Shown: positions 24,001-60,278 of the stretch, piece by piece | Numbering within the stretch: the first letter of the stretch is position 1 | How the letters are laid out: each line of letters opens with the position of its first letter | NCBI GenBank assembly: GCA_035221665.1 | Contig: CM069161.1 | Span: 15,314,001-15,378,000 of the forward strand | Length of the DNA stretch: 64,000 bases | DNA from: Okamejei kenojei | Taxonomy: Eukaryota | Direction: 5' to 3' | Program-made: the position numbers and the translations under genes | Notes under the pieces: generated by a model | What the model was told of the DNA's origin: nothing | The model's database searches: none | The model's input: the letters and a program-made list of their open reading frames with translations, nothing else

Positions 24001-27000
24001 AAACAGGGACATGTGCTTTAGATGGAGCCTGGAATTTCATGGCTGCTTTTGACTCTCAAATCCATAATTGAATATTACAAACATTTTCAAGCAATTCACA
24101 AGAATCACGTAATATTGTATAGCCTTTGGTAATTTTTAAATTCACTTTCAAATGCAATTGCCACCTACGGTTCAGTGCAATATCTAGTAAATCAGTCAGA
24201 ATGCTTGGGAATGGAATTAATGGGAAATGAATGACCAAGCAACTGAATGACTTAAGGGTGATGGAAACATTAAAGGGTATGAACATTTTGTCACAATCAG
24301 TATATGTAGTGAAATATTATTAAATTAGTAAAATGGGCAAAATAAAAATGAACGAGATACATGTGTCAAGAACTGTTCAAGAAAACTGAACAACAGCAAT
24401 TTCTTGTTTTCTTTTTGCCTGAAGGAAACTTGGTCTATTGCGTTTTCAGGCGTAGTAATAATGAAGTGAAAATTTGCCTCACCGAAAATGAAAAGCATTT
24501 CCACGGCAACGTCACTGACGGTGGTGCTGCGGGAAGTCGAGGAGCTGTCCTCACTCTCCGTGAAGCAAACGTTGTAAGGAACGGTCACCGCGACGTAGAA
24601 CGTGGCCAGCAGGATAAGCCAGTCCCAGCCAGCTTTGAAGGTACTGTAATGCAGGAGGATGAAGCGGGATTTCTGGATAGATGCCACTTTGTACTCGGGT
24701 AGAGTAGGCTTACTTTCAAACATGTTCTGCCAAAGAAGAGATTGAATTAGTTTAATGAAGCAATAAGTTGCTCCAAAAGTTTTCAGCTTGCTTTAAAGGA
24801 TCGTAAATGTCACAAAGGCATTGAGGGGTGAGACCCTGGAGTGGTTTGGAACCAAAGCTTAACAAAAAACAGAGTAGGTAACAATCTTTTAAATACTGTC
24901 GTAGTAGCAACCTCTGGCAGCTCATTCCATATACCCACCACCCTCTGGGTGAATAAAATTGCACCTCATGCTTTATGTATTATAAGTAAATTAATTTTAT
25001 TATACTGCAACAAAATATATAAAATCACATAACACATTAGTCTGTTATATATTTTCTTGGTTTGTTAACATTGATTAATGTAGCTTGAAGATAATTTGCT
25101 TAAGTTTTAATTTTCAATGTTTCAGATTTTTTGCTTTAAGCTATTGCAGGACGTGAGATTCTTTAAACAAATCACACGCGGGCCTTCAGTTTTTAATGCA
25201 GACTAACAAGGGATTGTTGATGTGAAGCATAGCGTTCAAGATGGAATTAGATAAGCAGTTGTGGTGTGGAAAAGTACAGGTTCACAAAAAGAGCAGGGAA
25301 TTGGGATTAAATTAAAAGTTCCAGTGACAAACTAGCTCAGGCATTATCTCATTTATGTTACCTTATTAACCGCAATTCCCCTGTCCAGGGAATGCATGTA
25401 AACACTCATGTATAAAACCCTGCTCCCAATGGTTACAATCAGCATCATTTTAGAGTGCAGCAGAAGAGACCAAACTCCCTGAATACGTTAATTGGGATAA
25501 ACCTGTAGAAATTGTCAGAGTCATAGAACCATACAACACAGAAACAACACAGGCCCTTCAGCCCAACTCATCCATGCTGCCCAAGATGCTTTATCTAAGC
25601 TTGTCTCATTGCCTGCATATGGCCCATATCCCTTTAAACTTTTCCTATCCCACCCTGTACCTGTCTAAGTGTTACATTTTATTATTGTACCTGCTTCAAC
25701 TATCTCCTCTGGCAGTTCATTTCAAGTACCCACTACTCTCTGGGTGAAACGGTTACCCCTCAAACATGTCACCCAGTCATAGTGCAGCATACCTCTTGTT
25801 GCAGCATCAAGGGGATACATTGCAACAAATTGCCAAGGCCCCTTAGGCAATGAGGAGCCTTGCATTAAAAACAGTGGGTGCATATAATGCCACTACTTCA
25901 GAGTTCTGTCCGTGTTCTTGCCTAAGAAGGTGTTTCCATTCCTTCATCATCATTTGCTCTAAGAAGCTGGCACTCCCGACCCAAAGGATCTGTGCGACCA
26001 TCTTCAGCAGAGTGGCACAGTGCTATCAACTCTGGTGTTATGCTGCAATTTAATTATTGCTGTTCAATTTATGCCATTTTGAATGGGAATTGAAGTCTGC
26101 AAAATGTTGCATAATAAACCTAAATCAATGAAGGCACTTGCTGAAAATCTTAGATTTTATGCTAGAATGCCTATAAAGAAGCAAGTTAAACCCAGGGGCC
26201 TGCCATATACAATTTATGGCAAAATATACAATGCAAATTGTTTTTTATCTTCCTAAATATTAATCCGAAATATTAATCAGGTTCAGTGATTAAATATTAA
26301 TTCGAAATATTAATCAGGTTTTACCATAAGTTCCAAAGTAGATGTCACACATTTATTTAAACATAAAGGCTTTCTGGGCATAACAGCATGATTTGTGCAC
26401 CAAGGTATGAATGGCAGCAAGCAGGGGCTTATCAATAATGACCAGGTTTTACTTACAAGCATTGCAGACTGGGAGCTTTCAGTTTCAGTTTCCTGTCCAT
26501 TGAGAACATGCAAATGGAGTAACAATGAAGAGTAAGTGAGGAACCAACATCGACTAACAGGAGTCACTCACAGCAACACATCAGCAACAAACAAGGCAGA
26601 GAAAGATTTTTAAAAAAGGACACATATGATGTTTTTTACAAGGATTCACAGGCAACGTTTGATCATGCATGATGGGGTTGTGACCAGGCACAGTCCAGAC
26701 ATTAATGGAACATTGACGAACTGAAGATAGACACAAAAAGCTGGAGTCATTCAGCGGGACAGGCAGCATCTCTGGAGAGAAGGAACGGCTGACGTTTCAG
26801 GTCGAAGCCCTTCTTCAGATAGACACATTCCTCTCCAGAGATGCTGCCTTTCTCGCTGAATTATTCCAGCTTTTTGTGTCTATCTTCAGTTTAAACCAGC
26901 ATCTGCAATTTCTTTTTACACTTTGCAAACAGAAACTCTTTCCAATTAACTCAAACCATCTGAGTCAATAAAATAAAAGTGCTAGAAACTTTATTTAATT

Positions 27001-30000
27001 TTATTTATTTTTAGGGGTGACAATGTACAATTAGGTAATTATTTTCTACATAACAGTTAAAACAACAATTTTGCATTTAGATTTCAGAGATATAGCGTGG
27101 AAACATGTCCTTCAGCCCTCCGAGTCCATGCCGACCAGCGATCATCTATTAGTCTAGCACGATCCTACACTCTGGGGACAATTTAGAATTTTACTGAAGC
27201 CAATTAACCTACAAACCATTGATTCTGAAAAAAAATGTCTTTCTCCTGCTGAATGTGCCTAGTTTACCTGAGAAAATCGAAGTCTAGAAAGTGTCAACCT
27301 ACAGAAAGTGTCAAATTTAATGTGATTAACTATAGGAGGTATTATGAAGTGATACTATTCCTTTCTTTCTGTCAGACACTCATGAAAAACAAGAGCTTTG
27401 GACAGCTGAGGCCTGTACTTTAAATGGTGTGACTCATGAGTGAAATTAATATAAATGTTTCCTCAGTAGAGAGAAACTGCTGAAAGCAACAGGTTATATG
27501 ATCATAAGGTCATAAGTGATAGGAGTAGAATTAGGCCATTCGGCCCATCAAGACATTCAATCATGGCTGATCTATCTCCCCCTCCTAACCTCATTCTCCT
27601 GCCTTCCCCCGTAACCTCTGACACCTGTACTAATCAAGAATCAGGTTGTTAGTCCCTGCAGTCTCACGATGAAGGGTCCACCCCTAAAATGAGAACGTAT
27701 CTATTTCCTCCACAGGCACTGACTGTCAGGTTCAGATCCCAGCTTCTCCTGTTCTTTCATTTTTAATTTCCACCGTCTACACAATGCTAGAGAATATTTT
27801 CTTCTCCTCTGCCTCACTCCTCCACGTGCTTTCTGGTTCAAATAAAGTATGCCTTTTTAAGGACATAAGAAATGTTAAAAAAAAACCTTATTTGTACAGT
27901 GATTTCCATGTTTCTTTCACATACCGCAAAGCATTTTATAGCCAAAGAAATATGATCAGTGTTGTAATGTAAGGAATATACCAGCCAGTCTGTGCAAAGC
28001 AACCTTCCACTGCAATGTACCAGTGGCTTGATAACCAGTGTTAAGAATGTTGACAAGTAGAACATATTATTCAGGACTCTGGGAATAACACCCCCAAAAA
28101 AAGCCTGCGGGATTGTATACAACCATCTGAAAGGGCAGTCAGGGTCTTTACTTAACATCTCATCAATACTTTAGACTTTTAGACTTTAGAGATACAGCGC
28201 GGAAACAGGCCCTTCGGCCCATCGGGTCCGTGCCGACCAGTGATCACCCACTCGTACACCAGTGCTATCCTACACACTAGGGACAATTTACAATTTTAAC
28301 AAAGCCAACCTACAGTCCTGTACGTCTTTGGAGTGTGGGAGGAAAGTGGTGCACCCGCAAAAAGCCCACGCAGTCACAGGGAGAATGTACCATCTCCATA
28401 TAGACAGTACCCGTAGTCAGGATAGAACCTGGGTCTCTGGCGCTTTGAGGGAGCAACTCTACCACTGCGCCACTGTGCTGTCCCAGTAATGAACCATTTC
28501 CACAGCTTAGAATTTAATGCTGAGGCCAGTGGATTGGGACTTGAACCTCTGTCTGAAAGCGGGAAGGTGTTGACCTTAGTAAGTGAGATGCTGTTAGCAG
28601 TGGCCGAGGTGGAGCTTGTGAAAGGCAAAAAGAGTTTTCACAATTCAACCAATTTGAATAAATAAATCACATTTGACAGACATGCTGTGCCTTCCAGATT
28701 CTTCCATCTCATTGAGTGACAGTGTTCAGTGTGTATTTACAGACAAGAGCTGTCACTTTGCCAGGGCAAGCCAGCACAACCTGTAATTCCACTCATAATG
28801 AAGGCAGTAATCTGCTGAACAAGGAGGACCACCGCCCCTTTGGAAATACTTTTAAATCTCTCCTTTGCATTGAGGCCATTTCTCCTCTCATGGGAGGGAT
28901 TGGATTATTATCTGCTCCTGCTTTCATGGTAATGTTCCCTTACTTTGCCTAAGTTATTACATATGAGCCCAGATAAAGGGAGCTGTCATTGCAGAAGGCA
29001 GAATGGCTAGATTGCACACTCATTGGTTTTGTAACCCCATCTGAGTTTGCTTTTCTCCAATGACAGTAGACTCCAGTAGTTGACAAGGAGTTATAATGCC
29101 ACTTAACCAGCCATGTCAAGTTAACTTTCCTCGACAAAAGTAGCATCGGAGGTAACAAGCAGATCGACCCGACTCCTGGAGGTGTCTACCCAACAGCTGT
29201 TGAAATTATGAGCAGAAAGTCAGACAAATAATATTGTAATTTCATTGGCGATTGAGGACAATATCATAATTAATGAACAGTAGATTCATGAGATATCTTT
29301 CCAAAATATCAATCCGGCATTTTCTGCTGGAAAAATAAGACAGAAAGTTCTGGAGTAACTCAGCGAAGCCAAGAAAAGGGGTTCAGTTCAAACCCGATAT
29401 GAAACGTCACCTATGTTTAGGAAGGAACTGCAGATGCTGGTTTACACAAAAGTCACAAAATGCTGGAGTAACTCAGCGGGACAGGCAGATTCTCTGGGTA
29501 GAAGGAATGGGTAACGCTTCGGAAGAAGGGTCTCTACCTGAAACATCACCCATTCCATCCAATGTGAAATTGAGTTACTCCAGCACTTTGTATCTCTTTT
29601 TGTAAACCAGCATCTGCAGTTCCTTGTATCCATATTTTCTGCTGGGACCTAATCAAACTAAACATTTCATCATTGTCATTCAAAAGGGATAGAAAGATTA
29701 GTCCAAAATCTTGATAAATAGAATGATATATTATCTCTAACTTGTGTATGACCGCAGATAGAAATGTTATTAAGAATGTTAGAAAGGTCATTCATTAACT
29801 GATTTACATACTTAATTTTACAAATTAGATAAAATTAAAAAATAAAACCAGACAATTAAAATACATTCAAATTGCAGACGTGTCTATGGTTCAAACACAC
29901 GTTAAGCTGTGGCTAAAAAGAAAACTCAATTCTCAGGCCATTAATGAAAATGGCTGCTTTGAACCAAAAAGCGTCCCTTCAATTTGGTTATGACTGATTG

Positions 30001-33000: not shown

Positions 33001-36000
33001 TGAGGGTGATAGGTCAAAGAAGAACACACATTGATGAGGGCACACTGAAGAACAGGAAGAACATTTAGTGGAGAGCCGATTATAATGAAAGAGTATGCCA
33101 CAACAGAACACAACAAGAACTAATAAACACACAAGGGCACAAAGTGCTGGGGTAACTCAGCAGGCCAGGCAGCATCACTGGAGAACATGGATAGGTGACA
33201 CTGCGGGTCAATAGACAATAGACAATAGGTGCAGGAGTAGGCCATTCAGCCCTTCGAGCCAGCACCGCCATTCAATGTGATCATGGCTGATCATCCCCAA
33301 TCAGTACTCCATTCCTGCCTTCTCCCCATACCCCCTGACTCCGCTATTTTTAAGAGCCCTAGCTCTCTCTTGAAAACATCCAGAGAACCTGCCTCCATCG
33401 CCCTCTGAGGCAGACAATTCCACAGACTCACCACTCTCTGAGAAAAAGTGTTTCCTCATCTCCGTTCTAAATGGCTTACCCCTTATTCTTAAACTGTGGC
33501 CCTGGTTCTGGACTCCCCCAACATCGGGAACATGTTTCCTGCCTCTAGTGGGCCCAAGCCCTTAACAATCTTATATGTTTCAATGAGATATCCTCTCATC
33601 CTTCTAAACTCCAGAGTGTACAAGCCCAGCTGCTCCATTCTCTCAGCATATGACAGTCCTGCCATCCCGGGAATTAACATTGTTCGAGGGTCGGGATTCT
33701 TCTACAGAACTAAAGATACAATTTCTTAAAAAATGCTTAATTTAACTGTTCACCCTACAGGTCAGAGTAGTACAATAAATTCTGTTCTGCAAGTGTGCTT
33801 ATTACTCACAAGTGATTAGGTAGCTGCTTTGGTAATCTATGCCCTACAATGTTTATTCAGAAGAAGCACAAATTTCCCTGGTTTCACGGAGCTGAATGCC
33901 ACTCTACAGCCAACGAATATTCAGTCTCTGCTGTGGCTCCTCCTCAGACCCTTGGTGTGCTGACCTATTGGTTCTACGCTGAATGCTTTCCATGACCCGA
34001 CTCTGAAGAAGCCTGGGGTTATTTAATTAAAATTCACCAAGATGACAATCATTTGGACACTGCCTTTAGGGCCTTGGCAATTTCTTACCTCTTTCAACAA
34101 AGTCGCGCAATCCAAATGAGAGCAGAACATTCTAGAATAACACCGAGTGCACAATGAGACCTCGAGCCACGTCAGGGGAAGTTGCCATTCAGCCTCACAG
34201 TAGAATACGAACATGAATACAGATGCAGAAAAGGGAGATACTCACGTTATTCAATGTGACTTTACTTTTGTCTCGTTTCTGCAGGTGGCTGGTCAGGTGG
34301 TAGAGGACCGTTCGGCCCTGCCTGCGTGCGGCACTAAAATGGGACCCACCTCCCTTTTTGTGTTTGTTCTTCTCCTCTGTTGAGAAGAACGGAAGGAGAA
34401 AATATAATCCAGCACCAGGCAATACAAAATGAGATGGGAGGTGTGAGGGGGGGAATAGGGAAGCTTGTGAGTCGCGAACCCCTCCACTGAGTTGCCACGG
34501 CCATTCTAGCTGCTGAACTAATCTGTGAGCGACATCTAGAGGTTTATGGAGGGAAACTCAGACCCTTGATAGAGTGGGTTTCCTCTGGGTTGTCAGGCTT
34601 CCTCCCACATCACAAAAATGTGTGGGTTGGTAGACTAATTGACCACTGTAAATTGGCATTAGTATGGAAGTGAATAGTAGAATATAGGGGGAGTTGTTGT
34701 GGATGTGGTGAGCTGATCTTTCAACCTAAGACTTTAGTGATAGAGTGGGGAAACGGGCCCTTTAGCCCACCGAGTCCACTCCTACCAGTGATCACCACAT
34801 ACACTAGCATCATCCTATACACTGGGGACAATTTACAATTTAACCAAAGCCAATTAACCTACAAACCAGTATGTCTTTGGAGCGTGGGAGGAAACCGGAG
34901 CATCCAAAGAAAGCCCACATGGTCACAGGGAAAATGTGCAAACTCCGTACAGACAGCACAGGTAGTCAAGATTGAACCCGGGTCCTCTGGCACGGTAAGT
35001 CAGCAACCCCACTGCAATATTGCCAGCGACTGTTGTTAGCGGCGTCATGAGGTTAATATTTGTATCCTTGATTTCCTTCCCTCCATGGACCTGCCAACTC
35101 CTGCATCGTCCTCCAGCCCTCCAGTCCGCCCACTCAATTGGAAAGTTCCAATGCTGGTTTGTGGATGATCCATAATTTAAATCTCTCAAGCAATGGCCAC
35201 TGTATCCGAGAGAGATGCAGCCCTTAGCACCCATCAACTACCCATTAACCCCAACTTTATATTAGTGCCATTTTTTAATCTCATCACATCCACATCAACT
35301 CGCCTCATATTCTTTGATCATGTGAATACATTGACATACGATGAGGATAAATTACAGTGAATAGACATTGCAAAGGACATCGTCAAGATTCAACAGCAAA
35401 TCTTCTTGGGTTTCACCAGCCTCAATGGATGTGGGTTGCTACAAAGAGCTTCTGAACGGGAACAATTAATCCACAAGTGGCAAATCCGATCTTTGCCTGA
35501 GATGACGGCTTTGAGACCGAGCAGAAGTGATGGTATAAAAAATATTGAAGTATAACAGCCATTCATGCTCCTACCTTCCTTCCAGTCTCTCTGATGGATT
35601 TTGCCTCGGTTATCTGTGACATCCTTAAAAGAGACGAGAAAAAGTACAACCTCCCCTTTCTCATTTTTAATGGGGACAATGTCAAGTAAACACCAGAATG
35701 CAGCTCCTGTAAATGAAGAACAGAGAAGACCACTTTAGTGGAACAAAAATGATTTCACAATCTCATTGAAGGTTCCGTCACAAACAACTATTAAAGTAAC
35801 GCTGCACTTACAGAAATTCCTCAGTGTTTGCCATTTATCACTGACCTCTTATAATGCCTACGCATATTAAGTGTCGGTAATGTAGCACAGAAATACAACT
35901 GCAATTACTGAGTTTATTGACAACCTAATTCAGAACAATGACATTCTACAGAAAATTGCCCCCAGATATTGCAGTTGCCTAAACAGGGTTTGATTAAAGA

Positions 36001-39000
36001 GTTGAAATGTTTAATTGTCTTTGGTACCAACAATGGAACAATTAAATTCTCACTTGTTGAAATTTAAGTGAAATAATACACATAATATATAGTAATAAAA
36101 AATACAATCAATTAATAACTTGTCTGACTATATCTGATGGCTGGGCCCTAAGACTACAGAATCTAATCATTAACAATAATCTAAAACGATTAGGATTAGT
36201 TTTATAGTTAGAGCTAGGGTTTTGCGGGGTTAAATTAAGAAGGACTGTATGACTCTATGACCCATTAGATGCCACAACAATAATAAATATACAATAAATG
36301 ATCGGGTCATTCTCGGAAAACTAGACCATGATGGTGCAAAGCCCAAACAATGTAGAGCATCCAGAATAGTGCAAAGTCCATAGTGGTTGACTAGGATTGA
36401 AGTGGTTGTGGGAGGGAGGTGGTTAAGTCGCGTGACTCTCAGGATACCTTCCCTTTAAGCTCAGAAATAATTTCCTCCCCCATTTATGTCATAAGTTCAT
36501 AACTTAGGAGCAGAATTAGGCCATTCGGCACCATCAAGTCTACTCTGCCATTCAATCATGGCTGATCTTTCCCTCTCAACCCCTAACTCCTGTCTTCGTC
36601 CCATAACCCGCCATGAAATTGCCATTGACGTGACCTCCACGGCCATCTGTGGCAATTAATTCCACAGGCTCACCACCGTCTGATGAAATAAATTCCTCTT
36701 CATCTCCTTTCTTACTTGTCTGCTGATAGGACAAGAAGTATATTAACCAGGTCCAAAAATCAACATATCCCAGAACTCTACTAACAAGTTGGATTAATCT
36801 GCTCATCACTGAGTTAGGTACATGAAGATTGACCCGAGTTAAATGCAGGATTTTATTTCCTTCTCGTCTTAACTGGTCTATTTATAATTAATGGTTCGGT
36901 CTACTCAATGGATTTCCAGGAAAGAAGAGTGTATGTTACAAGCAGAACCCTCTGCTCTATGGCAGCAAATATCTAAGAACAATTTTAATAGTGATATTGT
37001 CGAATTAACCTGGGTATTAGGCTGGATAGAAAAATCTCATTATGATGCTAATTTAGACCTATTAACATCTGTCCACTTAAGGTCCATATTCCTCTATTCC
37101 CTGCCCACTATATGCCTATCTAAATCCATTTTAAATGTTACTCAAAATATGTGTTTCCAGCACCTTGCCTGGCAGCACATCACAGGCACCTACTCTGTAA
37201 AATACTTGCCTCGCAAATCTCCTGTAAATTTTCCCTCTCACCTTAAACCTATGCCCTCTAATATTTGACATTCCCACCATGTGAAAAAAAAAACTCTGAC
37301 TATCTACCATGTCTATGCACTCATAATTTTATAAACTTCTATTTGATCACCCCTCAGCTTTTCACATTCCAGATAAAACAATCTTCTTCTAGCTGAGTTT
37401 CATTCCAAACCAGGTAATATCTTGATGAACCTCTTGTGCATCCTCTCCAAACCCTCACATTGTTACTACTGCAGCAATGCAGAATCACACAAGGCTCCAA
37501 ATGCGGCCTGCCCAAAGTTTTATATAGTTGCAACACCATATAGTTGCAATGCCATGGCCCATGAAGGCAGGCATGCCATATGCCTTCTTCACAGCTCTAT
37601 CCACTTTTGTAAAGGAAGAGATGAGTCTTGGATAATGGGAAAGATGATGAACCACAGTCAAAAGGAGATTGGATATTGTGGGACTTGAGAGTGGCAATAT
37701 TGCAAAGTTGGCAATCAGGATTAGTGCATTAGTGTATATTGGAAGGTCGGGGTCAAGAGTGTTGGAGTGATTATCGGGGATGCGGAAGATAGTGCATGAT
37801 AGCAGTGTAGGGAGGAGATCTAAGGGATAAAGGTGATATGAGGCTGACCTCAGAGGGGACCCAATCCACTGGTTTGTTGTGAAGATCTACTTGCCCACAG
37901 AATGGACTGTGATCCCAATCGTGTTAAAGAAGGAACTGCAGATGCTGGAGAATCGAGGGTACACAAAAGGCTGGAGAAACTCAGTGGGTGCAGCAGCATC
38001 TAAGGAGCGAAGGAGATAGGCGACGTTTCGGGTCGAGACCCTTCTTCAGACTGGTCAGACCTCTCGGTCCTGGGACTCCTCTACGGCCAGTGTGAGCAAC
38101 ACCGCAAGTTGGAGGAACAGCACCTCATATTCCGCTTGGGGAGTCTGCACGCTTTGGGCTTGAACATTGAATTTTCTCAATTCTGTTAACCCTTGCTGTC
38201 TCCTCCCCTTCCCACCTCTCCCTCAGCCCTCGGGCCCTGGCATTCCCTCTCTCTCTATCTCCCTCCCCCACCCTAGTCGCACTAGCTTCTCATTTTCACA
38301 CCACAAACAGCTTACAATGGCTTGTTCCCTTTATCATCAATACTTTTTTGCATATCTTTCATTCATTGTTCTTTATCTCTCCACATCACCGTCTATATCT
38401 CTCGTTTCCCTGATCCCTGACCAGTCTGAGGAAGGGTCTCGACCCGAAACGTCGCCTATCTCCTTCGCTCCTTAGATGCTGCTGCACCCGCTGAGTTTCT
38501 CCAGCCTTGTGTGTACTCCCAATTGTGTTCTTGTGTTGGATTCCTGCCAACTTTGATCCAAGTGTTAAAATTGACAGAACAATAGTGCATTTAAATTATT
38601 TGGCAGAATCATGTTCATTTAACAGAATTTCAACGTGGTATTCATCACAAAAAAAAGGATGGCTTTGTTATCCATGAGACACAAGAGAAAAAAGAAATTC
38701 GTCTGGATGCCACAAAATTTGTTGGAAGGATACAGTGTTCGATGAAAGGCAGTTTAAATGGAAAACAAATTCCTCTTATTTGCTTCACTATAATATGTAT
38801 TTTCTCAGCAGTGCACAGGGCATCTTAATTTCTTCAGTTGAAGAATGCAAGAATCTTTTACCCTTTTAAGCATTGCCGTCGCAAAGCCCAGATTGAGGTC
38901 AGTTTTGGATGGATGCATTAAATGGTTTAGATCACCTCAACCCACTCAATTGCATTCAAAAGTGCCAGGATGGTCCCAGAGTGACCAAAGCAGCTGGGTG

Positions 39001-40575
39001 ATTTTTTTTTTTTTTTTCCTCACTATAATGAAGACTTTTAATGAAGGTAAATGACATCATTGTAAGGCTGGATTCATGTTTTTTTTGAAAAAAGGAAATT
39101 TGGAGTTTGTAGGAAAGTTGGAACTACGTGAATGTTTCTCAAGGAAACAAAAGATGAAAACTAGTTGCTTGGCAGTACATCCCACTCAAGGGCAGAGTGC
39201 TATATGCTGATGCTATAATAATGCGAGATTAGTATGAACAAGTCAACAGAAAACTGGCATTGGTAGCTTTGATTTCATGCACAGCAATGGAGCATTTGCA
39301 CACTGCTTTAGAAATTCAGTTCCTTTAAAGGCAATAGGACCAAATTCTGGTAGTGGACTGTACTGAGCAAGAAGAAATTATATTGCATGTTTCCAATTCA
39401 ATGCTAGTACGCTGGTCTCTCAGACAGGTTATTGGATTTACGACAGAGGCTTGAGCATCAGAAAATCCGTTCACTGAGTGCTCTTCAGTCAAGGGATCAG
39501 TCTTTTATCCACGTTAAACTGACGCTTTGTTTGCTCTCTCGGTTGGATACAAAGATCCCACAGCACCTTTTTGAAGAACACAGAATTTGGAACCAGTCAT
39601 AAATTATTTTATATCTCAATAAGCATCGGTTACACATATTGCCGGCATTACTGTTGGTAAGGGCTCGTTTTGTTCGTATTGGTTGTTGTATTTCGTACAT
39701 TGAAATGGTGAGTAAACTGCAAAAAGGACGTCGCTGGCTGAAAAGCCTTTTTGAAAGGGCTACGAAAGGCAATATGCAAACTGAGAGTTTATTTTCTTCG
39801 ACAAAATATGATGGATCTGCATTGGACTGATCATCTTTCATAAGTGAAAACATTTTAGCATAAGACAGATGTAAAGGGCAAGGGGGGTGCCCAGTTTAGA
39901 TTGCCAGGGTCTGTGGTTAAAGTATAACAACCCAAGCATGTCTGAGCATCATGTAAGGGATGGGAACACATGTAGCAAAGTGGGCATGTTTCTTTGTATT
40001 GATACAGCCCAGTATATTACACAAGTCTAAGTCATCATTCTGGATAGGCACAAAATGCTGGAATAACTCAGGTCAGACAACATCTCTGGAGAAAAGGAAT
40101 AGGTGACGTTTCAGGTCAAGACCGTTCTTCAGACTGAGAGTCAGGGGAAAGGAAAACGGGAGATATAGACGGTGATGTCGAGAGATATAGAACAAATGAA
40201 TGGAAGATATGCAAACGTGTACTCTCCCTCTTCAATGCTTTTAGATACCATTTTGATGAGTTGCATAATGATTGTATCACAAAACATGGAATAGGTAGGT
40301 CCACGTTATCATGCAGTGCCCTTCATTACTGAAGATCTTACCGGATTTCTTGTAGAACTGTACTTCCCCCTGAAACTCTTGCTTGCTGTAGAGTGCTTTT
40401 TCGATCTGAATGGAAAGTTGGTCACTGGTCTCTGCTCCATGCAGGAACTTGCATCCACAATTCTTCTGCATGACTTCCGTGCGGGCGAAGCCAGTGAGCT
40501 CACAGAATCCATCCGAGCAGTAGACAATGGGAAAGCCTTGGAACACTTGAGCGTTTGCAAGGATAAAGTTGCTGT
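5691..40575 (-). CDS. KCNH4: Voltage-gated K+ channel, Elk/Kv12 subfamily, KCNH4-like (Kv12.3); spliced partial CDS, exons 2-13
   Basis: 12 GT-AG exons splice in frame: PAS/PAC, S1-S6, SVGFG pore, C-linker, CNBHD. KCNH4-type rather than KCNH8-type residues: [42 protein letters not shown], micro-exon ending SPRLSQ. Confidence 0.9.
7095..7378 (-). mobile_element. tRNA-derived SINE (HE1/V-SINE-like)
   Basis: Pol III A/B-box head, ggagtttgtacattctccccgtgacc core, LINE-like tail. Confidence 0.8.
7748..8120. mobile_element. Two Penelope-derived short inserts
   Basis: gatgctgcctgtcccgctgagttactccagc-type motif; ctgaagaaggatctcgacccgaagcgtc near 8025. Confidence 0.75.
8573..8611 (-). CDS. KCNH4: KCNH4 exon 12, 39-nt micro-exon; absent from ORF track
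   Basis: ttttcacag|GGAATC...TCTCAG|gtatg = [13 protein letters not shown]; phase 0-0; resembles the 39-nt SPRLSQ-ending exon of KCNH4. Confidence 0.88.
8643..9155 (+). mobile_element. Penelope-like element 3' fragment (GIY-YIG tail + UTR)
   Basis: [23 protein letters not shown], then pyrimidine-rich UTR and degenerate hammerhead-like end. Confidence 0.75.
11931..12145 (-). CDS. KCNH4: KCNH4 exon 11 (CNBHD, intrinsic-ligand FNL), 215 nt
   Basis: GKGDLIGAD...[15 protein letters not shown]...[13 protein letters not shown]; acceptor ttgcag, donor gtaag. Confidence 0.95.
13920..14260 (+). mobile_element. CR1-type LINE 3' fragment
   Basis: [19 protein letters not shown]...[16 protein letters not shown]...FKRHLDRYM. 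Confidence 0.85.
14668..14917 (-). CDS. KCNH4: KCNH4 exon 10 (C-linker/CNBHD), 250 nt
   Basis: [27 protein letters not shown]...[17 protein letters not shown]; donor gtaag. Confidence 0.95.
16449..16648 (-). CDS. KCNH4: KCNH4 exon 9 (S6, C-linker), 200 nt
   Basis: [35 protein letters not shown]...GIDTNE; acceptor ttccag, donor gtaca. Confidence 0.95.
17414..17900. repeat. 26-bp minisatellite (tacacctgatctctgctcggtgaagg), decaying to the right
   Basis: At least 11 contiguous recognisable units with no spacers. Confidence 0.9.
18302..18496 (-). CDS. KCNH4: KCNH4 exon 8 (pore, start of S6), 195 nt
   Basis: [10 protein letters not shown]...[33 protein letters not shown]; GFG selectivity filter. 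Confidence 0.96.
19958..20165 (-). CDS. KCNH4: KCNH4 exon 7 (S4-S5), 208 nt
   Basis: [28 protein letters not shown]...[25 protein letters not shown]; acceptor ttccag, donor gtaag. Confidence 0.96.
21790..22420 (+). mobile_element. Ancient L2-like reverse transcriptase relic
   Basis: SGIPQG motif, then degenerate LG.II..HG and (YA)DASQL resembling RT GVPQGS/YADDTQL. Confidence 0.55.
22440..22680 (+). mobile_element. Penelope-derived 3' end
   Basis: ctctcagtctgaagaaggg...aaaatgtcacccattcc...gatgctgcctg...gagttactccagc. Confidence 0.75.
23097..23254 (-). CDS. KCNH4: KCNH4 exon 6 (S2-S3), 158 nt
   Basis: [18 protein letters not shown]...[18 protein letters not shown]; donor gtaag. Confidence 0.95.
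23697..24003 (+). mobile_element. tRNA-derived SINE (HE1/V-SINE-like)
   Basis: A box tggtgcagctgg, B box ggttcgatcc, central core, gggccaaagggcctgtt tail. Confidence 0.85.
24483..24726 (-). CDS. KCNH4: KCNH4 exon 5 (S1-S2), 244 nt
   Basis: [16 protein letters not shown]...[22 protein letters not shown]...EMLFIF; acceptor tggcag, donor gtgag. Confidence 0.95.
26720..26920. mobile_element. Palindromic Penelope-derived insert
   Basis: Arms gaagatagacacaaaaagctgga / tccagctttttgtgtctatcttc; hammerhead-like core on the minus strand at 26791-26818. Confidence 0.8.
27885..28590 (-). mobile_element. Deu-domain SINE (SacSINE1/AmnSINE-related), interrupted by a younger SINE
   Basis: caaagcattttatagccaa...gttgtaatgtaagga...cagccagtctgtgcaaagcaa; head gggacttgaacc resumes after the insert. 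Confidence 0.6.
28168..28485 (-). mobile_element. tRNA-derived SINE (HE1/V-SINE-like), near full length
   Basis: Head gcacagtggcgcagtggtagagttgct; (ctaaagt)n tail. Confidence 0.88.
29335..29630. mobile_element. Palindromic Penelope-derived insert(s)
   Basis: aaggaactgcagatgctggtttaca ... tgtaaaccagcatctgcagttcctt. Confidence 0.8.
31245..31540 (-). mobile_element. tRNA-derived SINE (HE1/V-SINE-like)
   Basis: Same core as the 28168-28485 copy. Confidence 0.75.
32060..32620 (+). mobile_element. Degenerate RTE-clade LINE 3' fragment
   Basis: C-terminal CLTCGRVCG zinc-knuckle-like motif; related copy on the minus strand at about 53210-53500. Confidence 0.55.
33210..33680 (-). mobile_element. 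CR1-type LINE 3' fragment
   Basis: [36 protein letters not shown]; (ctattgt)n tail. Confidence 0.9.
34246..34376 (-). CDS. KCNH4: KCNH4 exon 4, 131 nt
   Basis: [44 protein letters not shown]; acceptor caacag, donor gtgag. Confidence 0.9.
34575..35015. mobile_element. Two HE1/V-SINE-like copies in opposite orientation (34575-34710 +, 34730-35015 -)
   Basis: cctcccacat core on + and gtgggagg on - within about 300 nt. Confidence 0.7.
35575..35706 (-). CDS. KCNH4: KCNH4 exon 3 (PAC), 132 nt; absent from ORF track
   Basis: Hand translation [44 protein letters not shown]; acceptor tttacag, donor gtagg. Confidence 0.95.
37100..37610 (-). mobile_element. CR1-type LINE fragment
   Basis: [15 protein letters not shown] and [14 protein letters not shown] motifs. 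Confidence 0.8.
38022..38049 (-). ncRNA. Minimal hammerhead ribozyme core, sense to KCNH4 pre-mRNA
   Basis: CTGAAGA-A-GGGTC-TC-GACCC-GAAA-CGTC on the minus strand. Confidence 0.65.
38426..38453 (+). ncRNA. Minimal hammerhead ribozyme core (Penelope-associated)
   Basis: CTGAGGA-A-GGGTC-TC-GACCC-GAAA-CGTC. Confidence 0.65.
39400..39800 (+). mobile_element. Degenerate Deu-domain SINE
   Basis: aaagatcccacagcac...gaagaa; ttggttgttgtatttcgtacattgaaatggtgagtaaactgcaaaa...ggctgaaaagc. Confidence 0.55.
40043..40215 (-). mobile_element. Penelope-derived 3' end with hammerhead-like core
   Basis: Minus strand ctgaagaacggtcttgacctgaaacgtc at 40105-40132. Confidence 0.8.
40342..40575 (-). CDS. KCNH4: KCNH4 exon 2 (PAS domain), 234 nt
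   Basis: (H)[29 protein letters not shown]...FYKKS; acceptor tttgcag, donor gtaag; phase 1-1. Confidence 0.95.
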
Positions 40576-40924
40576 CTGCAAATGCAAAGGGGGGGGGGGA
40601 CACCAGTTGAACATTTAGAACGAAACGTGCAGATGATAATGACAACTCTCCTTTTTTAAATTTACAAGTCTGGCCAATGAATAGGTGTAATTGTAATGAG
40701 TGTCATTGAACAATTAGTAGCATACAAGCAGAAGTAAAACTGCTTTGGTGTTGATATTTCCATCAATATGTGTCACTGTGAACATCTGCACAATTATGAT
40801 GCTGAATGTGTTGCATTCTGTACTCTTACTGAAGCTGCACAGAAAAGCTGTGGAAGCCTCAGTAAGCTGTGGAAGCTGAACATGGTCTGTCTATATAGTT
40901 AGAGGAGTAAGTTAGACAATTTCT

Positions 40925-41270
40925 ATTGAAGGTGGACGCAAAATGCTGGAGTAACCCAGTGGGACAGTCCTTCTTAAGGGTCTTGACCCGAAACGTCACC
41001 CGTTCCTTCTCTCCAGAGATGCTGCCTGTCCCGCTGAGTTTGTTACACTGACTTTTACAAACAGCACTTGGGCTCACATTGGATGTACCGAGTGATCCAG
41101 GAATCACAAGGCACCAGGGATACCATACTGACGAAGGGTCTGAAGAAGGGTCTCGACCTGACATGTCACCCATTCCTTCTCTCCAGAGATGCTGCCTGTC
41201 CCGCTGAGTTGCTCCAGCGTTTTGTGTCTATCTTCGGTTTAAACCAGCATCTGCAGTTCCTCCCTACACA
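40925..41270 (+). mobile_element. Tandem Penelope-derived inserts
   Basis: Two copies of the gacccgaaacgtcacc...gagatgctgcctgtcccgctgagtt motif. Confidence 0.8.
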
Positions 41271-46797: not shown

Positions 46798-47013
46798 AAA
46801 ACAAGGAACTGCAGATGTTGGTCTACCAAGAAAAGATACAAAATGCTGGAGGAATTCAGTGGGTAAGGCAGCATCCCTGGAGAACATGGAGAGGTGGCAT
46901 TTTGGGTCAGGACCCTTCTTCAGTTTGAAGAGAGGTCCAACCTGAAACATCATCTATCCTATTCTCCAGAGATGTTGCCTGAGCCGCTGAGTTACTCTTG
47001 CGCTTTTTCTCCT
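46798..47013. mobile_element. Palindromic Penelope-derived insert with 12-bp TSD
   Basis: acaccaattgtc at 46786-46797 and 47014-47025. Confidence 0.8.
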
Positions 47014-48741: not shown

Positions 48742-49402
48742 AGGGCCTGTCCCACTTACGCGTCCTTGGCACGCAAATTACCCGACCTCGTGGTCGCGTT
48801 GAGGCGCACGGGCATCGTATGGCCACGCGGGGCCGGTCCCACTTAGAAGCGCGGAGGGGTATGTAGTTGTGCGCGACATCGCGCGGGGCTCCGAAATATT
48901 TGTAGTGAACAAAATCTTTGCGCGCCAACGGCCTGTCGCGGAACTGGCAGCCAAAGTGGGACAGGCCCAAGACCCTGTTGCGACGCAACGTCTCGCCTTC
49001 AACAGCAGCAGAAGCGGGCAAACGATCGCCGAACTCGGCCTGGGGCTCACGGCCGTTGCAGTCCGATCCGCCCCCACTTCTACTCCCAGAGCGGGGTCAA
49101 GAAAATTGAAGATAGACACAAAAATGCGGGAGTAACTCAGCGGACGTTTCGGGTCAAGACCTTTCTTTTCAGACTGAAGAAGAGTCTTGACACGAAACGT
49201 CACCCATTGCTTCTCTCCAGAGATGCTGCCGGTCCCACTGAGTTACTCCAGCTTTGTGTCCATCTTCAAATGACGTCACGCGCTCCAGACGACTGTGTGT
49301 ACGCATGTAATCGCGCCCGACCTTCGCAGGACCATCGCGGCTCAACGCGACCACAAGGTCGCGTACGTGGCGTGCCAAGGACATGTAAGTGGGACAGGCT
49401 CT
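48742..49402. mobile_element. PIF/Harbinger-like MITE with nested Penelope palindrome (about 49105-49268)
   Basis: TIR agggcctgtcccacttac / gtaagtgggacaggctct; CpG-rich; extra internal TIR copies. Confidence 0.8.
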
Positions 49403-51255: not shown

Positions 51256-53904
51256 GTGCTCATTGACTGACCTCATTAGGGAGTGCAGCGGCAGTTTTTC
51301 ATATCTTTCAGGTAATTAGCACCCTAGCCACTATTTGGATGAGAATGGTTGAAGGGGGTGTCTTCTAAACATATACGAACTCACTCACAGAGACCTTCAG
51401 AGCTTCTTCTCAAATATGGCTTCAAAACACTTTGATGAATAAATGCTTTATTGTTGATAGAAAACAGTGAAATACATCCAAACTTCTTCCGACGTTACTG
51501 CAATCTTCATCGAACTCCAGCTTATTACTTTAAACATTAGAAAACTCCTCGTGTCTCTGTAACGCTGGCGAGATCTGGCATGTGGCCTGCATGATCCCGC
51601 ATGGTAGAGTGGTTAGCTGGAGTTCAGAAGAATGAAAAGTAATCTCACCAAAACAATAAATATTCTCTCAGGAGGATACAGTGAGAATTCTCCATTTATG
51701 GGAACATGAAGGAGCCGGGGCCATAGTTCAAGTTAAAGAGAGACCCACTCACTACTGAGGAGAGGGCTGTACGTTTGTTATTCTCTGTCCCAGTGAGCGA
51801 TGGACACTGACCCATTGAGAATGAAAAATCATAAAGGACTGCAGATGTTGGAAATATAAAAAAAAGAGAAAACATTTTAAATAGTCAATAGTTCAGGTCG
51901 CAGCTGTGAGGAGAAGAACGGCGGCAACGTTTCAGGTTGAAGATCTTCTTCAGAACCTGTTGCCACAGTTGCGGCCTGACCCGGAGAATATTGTAGCTTT
52001 TTCCTTTCTCCGTTAAGATTGAAATTGATCATTTTGGAACTACGAGAAAAGTAAAAGTTGTGGAGTCAAGCAGGAAAGCGTTGAGGCCATTGACCAGAGA
52101 GCAGCCATGATGTTACGTGACAGGGTGTCAACTGGCTCATAGATGCTTGTTATCTTTGTTGCTTCCCTTTCACTGACTACTATCCTGGTCAGTACTATCC
52201 TGAACTACTCTCTACCTCACTGGTGACCCTTGGACTAGCTGGCTTTACCTTACACTGAACGTTATTCCCTTTTCATGTATCTATGTCTCAATTGTAATCA
52301 TTTATTGTCATTCTGCTGATTGGTTAGCATGCAACAAAAGCTTTTCACTGTACCTCGGTACATGTGACAATAAACTAAACTGAACTGACAGCCTTCAAGC
52401 TCATTACCACTGAACCTGGAATCTTCCCATCACTGTTCATTGCTAAGCTCACCTCATTTTAGCCATTGTAGTTTCCTTCAGTATAGGGTTTACATCACCA
52501 CTTCAGTATGCTGCCAGGATCACAAAAGGATTGAAATGTCACACTTCTGCATTTAAGGTCTAATTAGGGTGTAGTTGTTAGTTAATTAGTGTTAGAACAA
52601 GAATTTGTTAAATTTTCTTGAAATTGTGTTTCCTGACATCGTCTTGTAAACACATTTTTTTTTTTAAATTTACGTGGTTAATGGATATCTAATGTCAGAC
52701 TTTAAGTTCACTGCTCAATGAGTTATTATATGAGAATAATTGTTGTCCTAATAAACAGCGCTCTGACCCAGATAAAGACAGCACACTGTCCACCCACACA
52801 CCTGCTAGTCTGTTTATGATCCACACAATCTGTTCACTGAATTTCTGAGATGTTTATAGCGTCTTCAATGCAATTGTAAGGGATTTGAAAAGTAGCTGAA
52901 GCTATCTTGAAAACATTGCAGCAGGTTTTTGTTTTGCCAGTACTGCATGGCTCATTGCAGAGTAGTGAAATGATCTCACATGGTAGTAAGATTCTTGCCT
53001 CCCAACCAATAAAGCCAATAGCCAGTGTGAAGTTACATAAGGGTACAGAAATTATACATCAGGGTTGTTTGTTATGCATGGTGACAATATTTATTACACC
53101 TGCCTAATCTCATGGTCCTTTATGGGTGAAGCTGGGGGGAAAGAAGGAAAATGGGAATGAATACCTCAGGATTTTCCCAAGCACCACCTTGAGGACCAGA
53201 GAGCATCCAAACCTTCTACTTCTTAGGCAGCTCCTCGGAATCTAGATCGACTGCTTCCCTTCTGGTTTTAAGGGTTCAGAGATGACCTAAGAGGCTGATG
53301 TGAGCACCACAGACTCTTCCACCAAAAAGGGCAGAAGGTGATTAACAGGGTGGATGGGTGGGTGGTTGGTTTGTGAGGAACAGCACTCCTTCCACTGTTT
53401 ATACAGGACTACTGTATGCTCCTGTTGAATGGATTTGAGGTTCTCAATACCATCCCGAATGTTCCATCTGCTCCTTGAGTCATCGTGGCAACAAAGATGC
53501 CCAGAGGTCAAAGAGGAAAATGACCGTGACCAATCACCGCTCATGGTTTTATAAACCTGTTTACGGTAATGCCTCAGCCTCCTTCGTTCAACGGAAAGAA
53601 ATCCCAGCCTACTCAGCCACTCCTTGTAACTCAAGCTCTCCAATCCTAGCACCAGCCTTGTGAATATTTTCCTGCATCCTCTTTAGCTTAATCACATCCT
53701 ATAATATGGTGACAAAACAGCCCATCCTTCTCCAGTGTCTTGTATTTCTGTAAATTGACAAGACGACTTATGTTCTCAGTGCCCTAACCAATTAAGGCAA
53801 GTAAGCTACACACATTCTTCACCATCCAGTATAACTGTATCATCACTCTCAGGGAGCGATATACCAATAGCCCTAAGTCTCCGTGTTCTAAGACACTTCC
53901 CTAA

Positions 53905-54236: not shown

Positions 54237-55484
54237 TAATGCTCTCTTTGTTATGAATGTTCCATCCTATCGTTTTCTCAATAGCTGTTTGATTGCCCAC
54301 TGCCATTCATCATCATGTGGCAGCAGAGCTGGAATCCAATCCATTGATGTTGGGAAGTCCTAGCTCTGCTGTTGCATGCTGTTCCCTTGCAGCTTCTCAT
54401 ACACGCGTGTTGCAACATCACTAGGTTCAGTTTCAGGTACGTCTAAAAGCTCTTTGGAACTTCTTTTTGAAACATGGTTGTTTCCCTAGCTTGATGGTAA
54501 TGGCAGAGCGAGGGTTAGGGTTACATTTTGTGGGGAAGGGAGTCTAATACTGGAGGGCATAGGTTTACGGTGAGGGGGAGGGGTGTGTGGAGATTTGAAG
54601 CCGACCTGTGGGTTTTTAGACAGAAGATGGTGGGTGTCTTGAATGAGCAGCTGGAGGAAGTGGTAGAGGTGGGTACTGTTACAACACTTAATAGACATTT
54701 GGATACGTTTGGAGGGATATGAGCCAAATGCAACAAATAGGCACCTTGATTCAGCCTATCTCCTTCGCTCCTTAGATGCTGCTGCACCCGCTGAGTTTCT
54801 CCAGCCTTTTGCGTACCCTTGATTAGCATGGATGTTTTGAGCTGAAGGGCCTATTTCCGTGCTGTGTGAATCTTTAATTCTATAATAGTATTCAGCCACG
54901 TGTCCCACATGATCTTCTGCAACAATCTTCTGATATCCCAAGCATCACAGAAGGCAGCCAATTTAATGTATGGCTCGGACCACTGAATAATCCAACTGAT
55001 TTGAAGACCTGAGCTCCAGAACTAGGACATCCAGCCCAACTCTTTCAGTACAATTACAACACTGGCGTCTCGCTGATGGTGCAGAAAATGATGCAAAGCA
55101 GAACAAATATAATCCACTTAATTACTGCCTTTTCTTAGCCAAGTGCAAAAGGTGAGAAAAAAATAACGTGGCAGCCGATATGGTGATGTTTTCCCCAAAG
55201 GCATGTTTAAGATTAAACTTTTTCAAGAAAATGAATGCGGAATGCATCAGTCATTTAGCCCTCATTGAGATGCTATGGTGATTCGAAGACTGCAGCTTTG
55301 GAAACACTAAGTTCACCTGTCAGATAAGAGTAAAGGCCATTAAGTCAATTAAGCCCATCCTTCATATCCTTTTGTTAACACTGCAGTGCAGAAAGTCATT
55401 CCATAGACTATCAAAGTTGTTAAAACAAAATCCAACCTAGAGGGATAGAATTGAAAACAAGGGATATTATGCTGAACTTTGTAG

Positions 55485-55770
55485 AAGAGCATCTCATATT
55501 TTGCTTGGGCAGCTTACAACCCAGCGGTATGAATATTGATTTCTCTAACTTCATGTAACCCTTGCTTTCCCTCTCTCTCCATTCCGCCCACATCCTCGTT
55601 CTCCGACTAGTTTTATTGTCCTGATTAAATTTGACCGAGTCTGTGCCTCGTTGTCAGCTTCCCCTCAGCTAACAACGAACCATTCTCCAGCGTCTGCAGT
55701 GTCATACCTTCGATTTTTCCAGCATCTGCAGTTCTTTCTTAAACATTCTACATTTCCTTATCATCGTCTG
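55485..55770 (+). mobile_element. Penelope-like element GIY-YIG tail fragment
   Basis: EHLIFCLGSLQPSGMNIDFSNFM* followed by UTR. Confidence 0.75.
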
Positions 55771-55842
55771 CTTTGATCCACCACCTAAAAGTATTCCAGG
55801 ACTTTTCCTAAAGGTAAGTCAAAGAAATATCTGGACAGCTTG

Positions 55843-56049
55843 TGTAGGAAGGAATTGCAGATGCTGGTTTAAACCGAAGATAGACACAAAAAAGCTGGAG
55901 TAACTCAGCGGGACAGGAAGCATCTCTGGAGAGTAGGAATGGGTGACGTTTTGGGTCAAGACTCTTCTTTGACCTGAAACGTCACCCATTCCATCCCTCC
56001 AGAGATGCTTCCTGTCCCGCTGAGTTACTCCAGCTTTTTGTGTCTATCT
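55843..56049. mobile_element. Palindromic Penelope-derived insert with ~15-bp TSD
   Basis: ~80-bp inverted arms; tatctggacagcttg / tatctggacaacttg flanks. Confidence 0.85.
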
Positions 56050-56344: not shown

Positions 56345-57030
56345 ATAGACAATAGACAATAGGATCATGAGTAGGCCATTCAGCCCCTCGGGCCAGCACT
56401 GTCATTCACTGTGATCATGGCTGATCACCCACGTTCAATACCCTGTTCCTGCCTTTTCCCCATAGCCCTTGACTCCGCTATCTTTAAGAGCTCTATCCAA
56501 CTCTCTCTTGAAAGCATACATAGAATTGGCCTCCACTACCTTCTGAGACAGAGAATTCCACAGATTCGCAACCCTCTGTGTGAAAAAAGGTTTTCCTCAT
56601 CTCTGTTCTAAAATGGCTTACCCCTTATTCTTAAACTGTGGCCCCTGGTTCTGGACTCCCCCAACATTGGGAACACATTTCCTGCATCTAGCGTGTCCAA
56701 ACCCTTAATAATCTTATATGTTTCAATAAGATCCCTCTCATCCTTCCAAATTCCAGCCAAACTATACAAGTCCAACCACTCCATTCTATCAATATATGGC
56801 AGTCCCGCCATCCCGGGAATTAACCACGTGAACCTACGCTGCACTCCCTCAATAGCAAGAATGTCCTTCCTCAAATTTGGAGACCAAAACTGCATTCAAT
56901 ACTCCAGGTGTGGTCTCACTAGGGCCCTGTACAACTGCAGAGGACCTCTTTGCTCCTATACTCAACATCCTTTGGCTTTCTTCACTGCCTGCTGTACTTA
57001 CATGCCTACTTTCAGTGACTGATGTACAAG
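56345..57030 (-). mobile_element. CR1-type LINE 3' fragment
   Basis: QFWSPNLRKDILAIEGVQRRFT.LIPGM...[17 protein letters not shown]. Confidence 0.9.
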
Positions 57031-60046: not shown

Positions 60047-60278
60047 NNNNNNNNNNNNNNNNNNNNNNNNNNNNNNNNNNNNNNNNNNNNNNNNNNNNNN
60101 NNNNNNNNNNNNNNNNNNNNNNNNNNNNNNNNNNNNNNNNNNNNNNNNNNNNNNNNNNNNNNNNNNNNNNNNNNNNNNNNNNNNNNNNNNNNNNNNNNNN
60201 NNNNNNNNNNNNNNNNNNNNNNNNNNNNNNNNNNNNNNNNNNNNNNNNNNNNNNNNNNNNNNNNNNNNNNNNNNNNNN
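60047..60278. other. Assembly gap (N run)
   Basis: 232 N. Confidence 1.

What the first reader, a model, noticed from the sequence alone, without database searches (positions are those of the whole stretch)
37926..38516. Penelope-like insert with two opposed intact minimal hammerhead ribozyme cores inside a K+ channel intron
Seen: CTGANGA-A-GGGTC-TC-GACCC-GAAA-CGTC on both strands (38022-38049 minus, 38426-38453 plus), flanking a GIY-YIG C-terminal remnant, all bounded by a 13-bp TSD. Known: Penelope-like elements carry minimal type I hammerheads with a very short stem III that are thought to cleave as dimers, and an extra A after A9 is a tolerated core variant. Here GAAAC-GUC leaves no stem III loop and stem I is only about 2 bp, so a monomer is unlikely to fold. 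Inference: the minus-strand copy is transcribed in KCNH4 pre-mRNA and could cleave only by pairing with another sense copy; pairing with its own inverted arm would silence it.
Basis: partly seen in the sequence, partly recalled or inferred. Interest (0 to 1): 0.75.

Follow-up and report, generated by a model that had tools for sequence, protein, structure and literature searches.

The report
Ordinary Penelope retrotransposon fragment, silenced ribozymes
This is a broken, recently inserted copy of a very common jumping gene in a potassium-channel intron, likely of a skate or ray; its two mirror-image ribozyme motifs are a known layout and are predicted to pair with each other rather than cut RNA.

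Summary
A 591-bp insert carries two opposed minimal hammerhead cores, a GIY-YIG C-terminal remnant and a 13-bp TSD. An empty orthologous site in a related organism lacks exactly 591+13 bp.

It is a 5'-truncated Penelope-like element (PLE), probably Neptune clade, with the standard inverted 5' pLTR copy and a 33-bp tail on one arm. That layout, the minimal core with an extra base after A9, and opposite-strand core pairs 100-700 bp apart are all in print (PMC4209133, PMC8557442, PMC3846280). The layout is common in this window: 32 arms in 64 kb, with 9 head-to-head pairs.

In the host pre-mRNA the antisense arm is made first, and the arms are predicted to form a 100-bp duplex, so the core should not fold. 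Cleavage of the host transcript is unlikely. No RNA data were available.

One lead remains. The 5' ends of arms pile up 1-5 nt before the core, at an initiator-like CAGTCT. This suggests short 'strong-stop' cDNAs and priming of both target strands. The KCNH4 label was not verified; the gene is ELK-type (KCNH3/4/8).

The parts
37913..37925 (.). Left target-site duplication TCCCAATCGTGTT; its last 5 nt may also be microhomology with the element end
   Evidence: empty site in organism B lacks 604 = 591+13 bp
37926..37958 (-). 33-bp PLE 'tail', present only on this arm; holds the conserved CCAGCATCTGCAGTTCCTT box
37959..38058 (-). Inverted 5' pLTR arm; sense in the host pre-mRNA; starts 9 nt (5 nt if the junction microhomology is excluded) before the core
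38022..38049 (-). Minimal hammerhead core 1; predicted cut between 38022 and 38021; stem II 4 bp, stem I 2 bp, palindromic ACGU in place of stem III
38055..38058 (.). Inversion junction; TCAG can be read as the start of the arm or as codons S-D of the ORF (microhomology, inferred)
38055..38189 (+). Last 44 codons and stop of a PLE RT-GIY-YIG ORF
   Evidence: 83% to a Leucoraja gene model; 50% to Rhincodon RT-GIY-YIG P0122
38190..38516 (+). 3' pseudo-LTR, pyrimidine-rich, ending at the short (tail-less) end
   Evidence: related copies at 40042-40215 and 55484-55746
38394..38427 (+). TATA-like TATATC at -29 and initiator-like CCAGTCT (A at 38423): candidate element start site; also resembles a 3' splice acceptor
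   Evidence: read from sequence; Inr consensus YYANWYY recalled; pile-up of 5' ends here; function inferred
38426..38453 (+). Minimal hammerhead core 2 (N7=G); antisense in the host pre-mRNA; predicted cut between 38453 and 38454
38517..38529 (.). Right target-site duplication TCCCAATTGTGTT
40342..40575 (-). Upstream host exon (PAS domain) of an ELK-type KCNH channel gene
35575..35706 (-). Downstream host exon (end of PAS domain); the intron between the two is 35707-40341

Best explanation
The insert is a 5'-truncated copy of a high-copy Penelope-like retrotransposon, and its two hammerhead cores are likely inert passengers that are predicted to pair with each other in the host RNA rather than cut it. 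Shown: the insertion and TSD, the endonuclease remnant, the pLTR with its core, the inverted arm with tail, and many sister copies. Inferred origin: the element's RT-endonuclease made a 13-nt staggered cut; one end primed at the short start and copied 458 nt back into the ORF; the other primed at the long (tail) start and copied about 130 nt to just before the core; the two cDNAs joined head to head through TCAG. The core belongs to the parent element, where it would act as a dimer through ACGU or with help from the protein (by analogy with published PLEs, untested here). In the channel pre-mRNA the likely product is a 100-bp hairpin spliced out with the intron.
For: Empty site in organism B. 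EN remnant aligns to elasmobranch RT-GIY-YIG proteins with a CX4CxxC linker. 32 arms and 9 head-to-head pairs in 64 kb; 12-15-bp TSDs at 4 of 19 loci tested; 138,603 contigs of one DNA run lay on the element. The core fits the published min-HHR consensus. Related PLEs carry the same core 3' of the ORF, with stem II covariation. Layout in print. Folding of the host strand: cores fully paired to the other arm, duplex -204 kcal/mol against -3.1 for the ACGU dimer helix. Only 5 of 13 full-length cores in the window remain intact, as expected for neutral decay. In the anole PLE, core mutants did not reduce insertion in vitro and no reads ended at the cut site.
Against: No RNA data: the one candidate RNA run of this organism was probably DNA and held contigs only. 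Folding is an equilibrium prediction and ignores splicing, proteins and editing. Both cores here are intact, though the copy is young (arms 97% alike). No full-length parent element of this family could be fetched. The double-priming origin is inferred; Arkhipova et al. prefer self-priming on an antisense template.
Confidence: 0.85

Rival explanations
1. The minus-strand core cuts the host channel pre-mRNA in trans, by dimerising through ACGU with another sense copy of this abundant family, and so tunes channel expression.
For: The core is intact with all four stem II pairs; sense copies are abundant as potential partners; minimal hammerheads show low activity as dimers and can be protein-assisted.
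Against: The antisense arm is made first and the duplex is predicted at -204 kcal/mol. Two free sense copies prefer another pairing (-27.2) to the double-hammerhead skeleton (-12.7). Stem I is only U-G plus G-C. The insert is absent from a relative whose flanks differ by about 3% (13 letters in about 416), so it is no old conserved control element.
Confidence: 0.04
2. The motif works as a hammerhead in no context in this family; it is a vestige kept for another role (start site, splice acceptor or RT-binding element), and the family is mostly a SINE-like 100-135-nt unit.
For: Stem I is 2 bp against 5-6 bp in relative L003. The core is no better kept than two downstream boxes. All 4 of 4 aligned copies of a related family (L001, L002, L005, L006) carry U4C. 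Rfam finds no hammerhead.
Against: Stem II covaries between families and 12 core columns are invariant in a 10-row alignment (small, related rows). Published PLE cores also have 2-bp stem I (Drosophila, Culex). One arm (54754) starts exactly at the predicted cut. This rival can hold together with the best explanation.
Confidence: 0.3
3. The inverted arm arose by fold-back self-priming on one template, or by later recombination, not by priming of both target strands.
For: Several junctions in the window are palindromic around CAG-T-CTG; self-priming on an antisense template is the published proposal.
Against: Pairs with a TSD have one long end and one short end at near-fixed distances from CAGC boxes, matching two RT start sites and extension of both strands in vitro. 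Here the two arms are separated by 358 nt of ORF and pLTR, not by a palindrome.
Confidence: 0.3

Closest known systems
[quoted passage not shown]
   Same: CUGANGA-H, G10.1-C11.1, GAAA-C-G-U-H, no stem III loop, U-rich upstream; dual cores on opposite strands 100-700 bp apart; Fig. S4A shows a 5'-truncated PLE with a second core on the opposite strand.
   Different: No shark, Callorhinchus, Leucoraja or Squalus entry in the supplement text searched (one file not searchable). Stem I of 2 bp is at the short end of their alignment.
Neptune-clade PLEs, e.g. Acropora digitifera Neptune (Table S1, Fig. S3 of PMC4209133) and elasmobranch RT-GIY-YIG models P0122, P0123, P0125
   Same: C-terminal GIY-YIG with a CX2-5CxxC linker in the relatives; core with 4-bp GGG-opened stem II and a 4-nt loop. 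L002, fetched by protein likeness, carries the Acropora Neptune core but for one base.
   Different: This copy keeps only 44 codons. No tree was built, so Neptune versus Nematis is not settled.
Penelope insertions of Adineta vaga (Pen2a; PMC3846280) and the general PLE scheme (PMC8557442 Fig. 2)
   Same: Head-to-head inverted pLTR, 30-40-bp tail on one end, TSD, confirmation by an empty site.
   Different: TSDs here are 12-15 bp against 8-10 bp; most local copies are only 100-135-nt arms with no ORF.
PAc Poseidon element of Anolis (PMC11167929)
   Same: Hammerhead at the pLTR end, two ends one tail-length apart.
   Different: Different clade; its ORF starts inside stem II, which could not be tested here.
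Non-LTR retrozymes (PMC7229834; bioRxiv 10.64898/2026.07.22.740005)
   Same: Type I hammerhead in a short non-autonomous PLE-related repeat; one chondrichthyan genome was screened in the preprint.
   Different: Retrozymes are head-to-tail tandems that allow double cleavage; this is head-to-head, which blocks it.

Membership tests
EN+ Penelope-like element | ORF with RT and C-terminal GIY-YIG endonuclease | tested here: met
   Remnant aligns to the C-end of proteins with RVT_1 and GIY-YIG hits; RT itself is lost by truncation
EN+ Penelope-like element | pLTR 3' of the ORF carrying a hammerhead motif | tested here: met
   Core 237 nt after the stop
EN+ Penelope-like element | Inverted 5'-truncated copy at the 5' end (head to head) | tested here: met
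EN+ Penelope-like element | 30-40-bp tail on one end only | tested here: met
   33 bp, 37926-37958
EN+ Penelope-like element | Target-site duplication | tested here: met
   13 bp, confirmed by the empty site
Neptune clade | CX2-5CxxC linker between RT and EN | tested here: inconclusive
   Present in relatives P0122, P0124, P0125, P0127; not retained in this copy; shared with Nematis
Neptune clade | Placement in an RT phylogeny | not tested
   No named reference set of PLE RTs was at hand
PLE minimal type I hammerhead | CUGANGA-H, GAAA-N and palindromic N-U-H with no stem III loop | tested here: met
PLE minimal type I hammerhead | Stem II of at least 4 bp opened by G10.1-C11.1 | tested here: met
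   GGGU/ACCC; 82.5% of cells paired, 2 of 4 pairs with two-sided changes in 10 rows
PLE minimal type I hammerhead | Stem I next to the cut site (mostly 3-5 bp, 2 bp in some published cases) | tested here: inconclusive
   2 bp (G-C, U-G or U-A); third position unpaired in 7 of 10 rows
PLE minimal type I hammerhead | Self-cleavage after NUH (dimeric or protein-assisted) | not testable with these tools
   No raw RNA reads of this organism were available
Canonical type I hammerhead (Rfam) | Match to a curated covariance model | tested here: not met
   No hit at gathering score in the window, none at E<=10 in 37800-38700
Non-LTR retrozyme | Head-to-tail tandem units, each with a hammerhead | tested here: not met
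   The two cores are on opposite strands
KCNH4 (host gene) | Orthology within ELK channels KCNH3/4/8 | tested here: inconclusive
   Best solved-structure hit is an Eag-like channel PAS domain; no neighbouring marker gene found

The most novel reading that the evidence does not exclude
This batoid family records the Penelope replication cycle in some 10^5 natural replicates. Its RNA starts at an initiator 3 nt before the hammerhead core, which is why stem I is only 2 bp. A dimeric RT-endonuclease primes both target strands at two start sites (long and short), giving strong-stop cDNAs and head-to-head pairs. The same dimer would bring two cores together for cleavage, and arms that begin exactly at the cut site (such as 54754) would be the first genomic footprint of PLE hammerhead cleavage in vivo.
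Probability: 0.2. Interest if true: 0.6.

Novelty: new member of a known kind. Interest (0 to 1): 0.22.

Why it matters
As an intronic ribozyme switch in a channel gene it most likely does not matter: it is one young copy among very many, and its own inverted arm is predicted to block it. The family is more useful than the locus. How PLEs form head-to-head repeats and what their hammerheads do are both open questions in the papers read. A genome with about one arm per 2 kb lets both be tested by counting ends. Such hairpins in introns could also be substrates for A-to-I editing, as inverted Alu pairs are in primates (general knowledge; untested here).

Tried and rejected
Whole genome not held. 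No DNA copies in metagenome or viral collections. Rfam gave only chance hits. P0001 is a chimeric gene model (LINE-type RT plus PLE EN), so its full-length search returned unrelated LINE RTs; only residues 138-236 were informative. Raw-read run X21 was irrelevant (1 read laid), and X14 was probably DNA, so neither speaks to expression or cleavage. A spliced 5' exon that would extend stem I was considered: upstream sequence looks like a 3' acceptor, but arms starting at -1 or -2 share no upstream exon and loose ends agree at only 0.31-0.42, so it is not supported. A shared tail box with the coral-like relatives was tested by pattern and found in 0 of 7 loci. The short arms fold no better than shuffles. 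A translated trace of the core at the end of Stegostoma model P0123 (7 of 9 residues, E=0.009) is weak. TSDs were not found at 15 of 19 loci, with rough boundaries. No exon 1 or orexin neighbour was found to fix the paralogue. The sigma-70 scan does not apply to an animal. Three searches of earlier findings returned nothing.

Full report
Observation. A relaxed pattern gives 7 matches in the window and 0 in 100 shuffles. They lie in an inverted repeat whose shared part is 100 nt at 97%. The flanking 13-mers match at 12 of 13, a score reached by 2 of 400 random pairs. A 2237-nt contig from organism B lays on 37700-37912 and continues directly at 38517, so it lacks 604 bp: the 591-bp insert plus one TSD copy. 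Its flanks differ by 13 letters in about 416, so the insertion is young. A second sample of organism A has a contig spanning the right junction. The host gene is an ELK-type KCNH channel on the minus strand, with PAS-domain exons at 40575-40342 and 35706-35575 and canonical splice sites. Which paralogue it is was not resolved.

What it is. The reading frame at 38055-38186 has no Pfam hit on its own. It is 83% identical to the end of a Leucoraja gene model and 50% to a Rhincodon protein with RVT_1 and GIY-YIG domains. Those relatives carry a CX4CxxC linker, the mark of Neptune and Nematis PLEs. The organism is therefore probably a skate or ray (inferred). The element lies on the plus strand: ORF end, pLTR, core, short end at 38516. 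An inverted copy of its last part sits at the 5' side and runs 33 nt further. That is the published layout: an inverted 5'-truncated copy with a 30-40-bp tail on one end (PMC8557442), with TSDs in Adineta (PMC3846280). Cervera and de la Pena defined the minimal core, including the unpaired base after A9, G10.1-C11.1 and the palindromic 15.2-16.2 positions. They reported dual cores on opposite strands 100-700 bp apart and figured a truncated PLE with a second opposite core (PMC4209133).

How common. A profile from three local arms gave 36 hits in the window, 32 at E<=1e-5. These form 9 head-to-head pairs. TSDs of 12-15 bp flank 4 of 19 loci tested. In run X3, 138,603 contigs lay on the element, at a summed depth of millions against 24 on the flank. 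The tool warns that this is no copy number; with one arm per 2 kb locally it suggests roughly 10^5 copies (inference).

Is the core under selection? In 28 of the 32 arms (three misaligned rows and one focal arm dropped), non-CpG core columns match the majority in 163 of 177 cells (92%). The 3' linker matches in 703 of 846 (83%; Fisher p=0.002). Two downstream boxes match equally well, 373 of 403 and 180 of 189. Only 5 of 13 complete cores are intact. Related PLEs fetched by protein likeness carry the same core after the ORF. L002 matches the published Acropora Neptune core but for U4C, and L003 has a 5-6-bp stem I. Across 10 selected, related rows stem II covaries and the third stem I pair fails in 7 of 10. 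So the motif is a true member of the family by sequence, with an unusually short stem I.

How it most likely behaves. As monomers the cores are predicted to fold into other structures (stem II probability 0.002-0.012). In the host strand, the antisense arm is transcribed before the sense core. The full element folds with the core paired to that arm, the arm duplex at -204 kcal/mol, against -3.1 for the ACGU dimer helix. Published minimal cores are inactive as monomers and weak as dimers. The anole PLE core cleaves only with protein, is dispensable for insertion in vitro, and left no cut-site reads in public RNA data (PMC11167929). Cleavage of the channel pre-mRNA is therefore unlikely. No RNA test was possible: run X14 was probably DNA, and X21 gave 1 read.

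A lead. Arm 5' ends cluster just before the core: 13 of 32 at -11 to -1 and 9 at -5 to -1, with three rows mis-assigned. Loose ends at 38050-38053 are among the six rows shown per run in three runs, with 100-1137 contigs each and agreement 0.31-0.42; 2089 rows were not shown, and part of the 38053 signal is another subfamily's upstream sequence. The site reads CCAGTCT, like an initiator (consensus recalled), with TATATC at -29. Pairs with TSDs have one long and one short end, and PAc extends both strands from two start sites. I infer strong-stop cDNAs and priming at both target ends. The published alternative is self-priming on an antisense template. One arm starts exactly at the cut site, but that position is not among the loose ends or joints shown, so evidence for cleavage in vivo is weak and mixed.

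Literature seen. PMC4209133: main text parts 1-2 of 4, supplement file 2 parts 1-2 of 3; file 1 was not searchable. PMC11167929: parts 1-2 of 4 and passages; supplements not read. PMC8557442, PMC3846280, PMC7229834: passages only. bioRxiv 10.64898/2026.07.22.740005: part 1 of 5 and passages; it screened one chondrichthyan genome, and its supplements, unseen, may list this family. Searches (listings only) showed no paper on a skate or shark PLE hammerhead or on twin priming in PLEs. Repbase, Dfam and subscription journals were not searched.

Verdict. A real feature and a new member of a known kind, most likely inert at this locus. Interest 0.22. The family-level mechanism is the only part that could surprise a specialist (probability 0.2, interest 0.6 if true).

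Noticed in passing
window, whole (e.g. 7969-8124, 13087-13268, 26718-26921, 29413-29625, 40923-41041, 46800-47006, 49103-49270, 55837-56049): 36 profile hits (32 at E<=1e-5) to the pLTR arm; 9 head-to-head pairs including the focal one; at least two subfamilies.
   Followed up: yes
window 38050-38053 and 38421-38425: 5' ends pile up just before the core: 13 of 32 arms start at -11 to -1, 9 at -5 to -1 (three rows mis-assigned); these are among the top loose ends in three runs.
   Followed up: partly
window 54754-54825 (+); possibly 26823-26921 (+): One arm of the same subfamily begins exactly at the predicted hammerhead cut site; a second does so if one mismatch is allowed. Could be chance.
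   Followed up: partly
window 7729/7877, 46786/47014, 55829/56046: TSDs of 15, 12 and 14 bp around other copies; several begin with 2-5 nt matching the element's continuation, suggesting priming by microhomology.
   Followed up: partly
window 37971-37985 and 37931-37949 (-): Two boxes 3' of the core (CTGAGTTACTCCAGC-like and CCAGCATCTGCAGTTCCTT) are as conserved as the core and lie just inside the short and long ends; candidate RT-start signals.
   Followed up: partly
L001, L002, L005, L006 (e.g. L002 1992-2019): A related Neptune-like family has U4C in the core in 4 of 4 aligned copies, with a TATATAAA box about 40 nt upstream.
   Followed up: no
L001-L007: Contigs of one record titled as a bacterial MAG carry animal-type PLE ORFs, so the bin likely holds host DNA.
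   Followed up: no
L003 1968-2014 and 2988-3072: Another related PLE has the same core with a 5-6-bp stem I and a 47-nt inverted arm at its 5' end.
   Followed up: partly
window 51836-51956 (-) and 55484-55746 (+): A divergent family arm with an intact core but weak stem II; and a second EN C-terminal remnant with partial pLTR and tail.
   Followed up: no
window 61186-62397 (+): Broken LINE-type RT remnants by translation; further LINE-like 3' fragments near 14054, 33304-33701, 45686, 53290, 56438-56895.
   Followed up: no
window 1213-1373 and 60047-60278: Two assembly gaps (N runs) in low-complexity sequence; the first exon of the channel gene was not found in the window.
   Followed up: no
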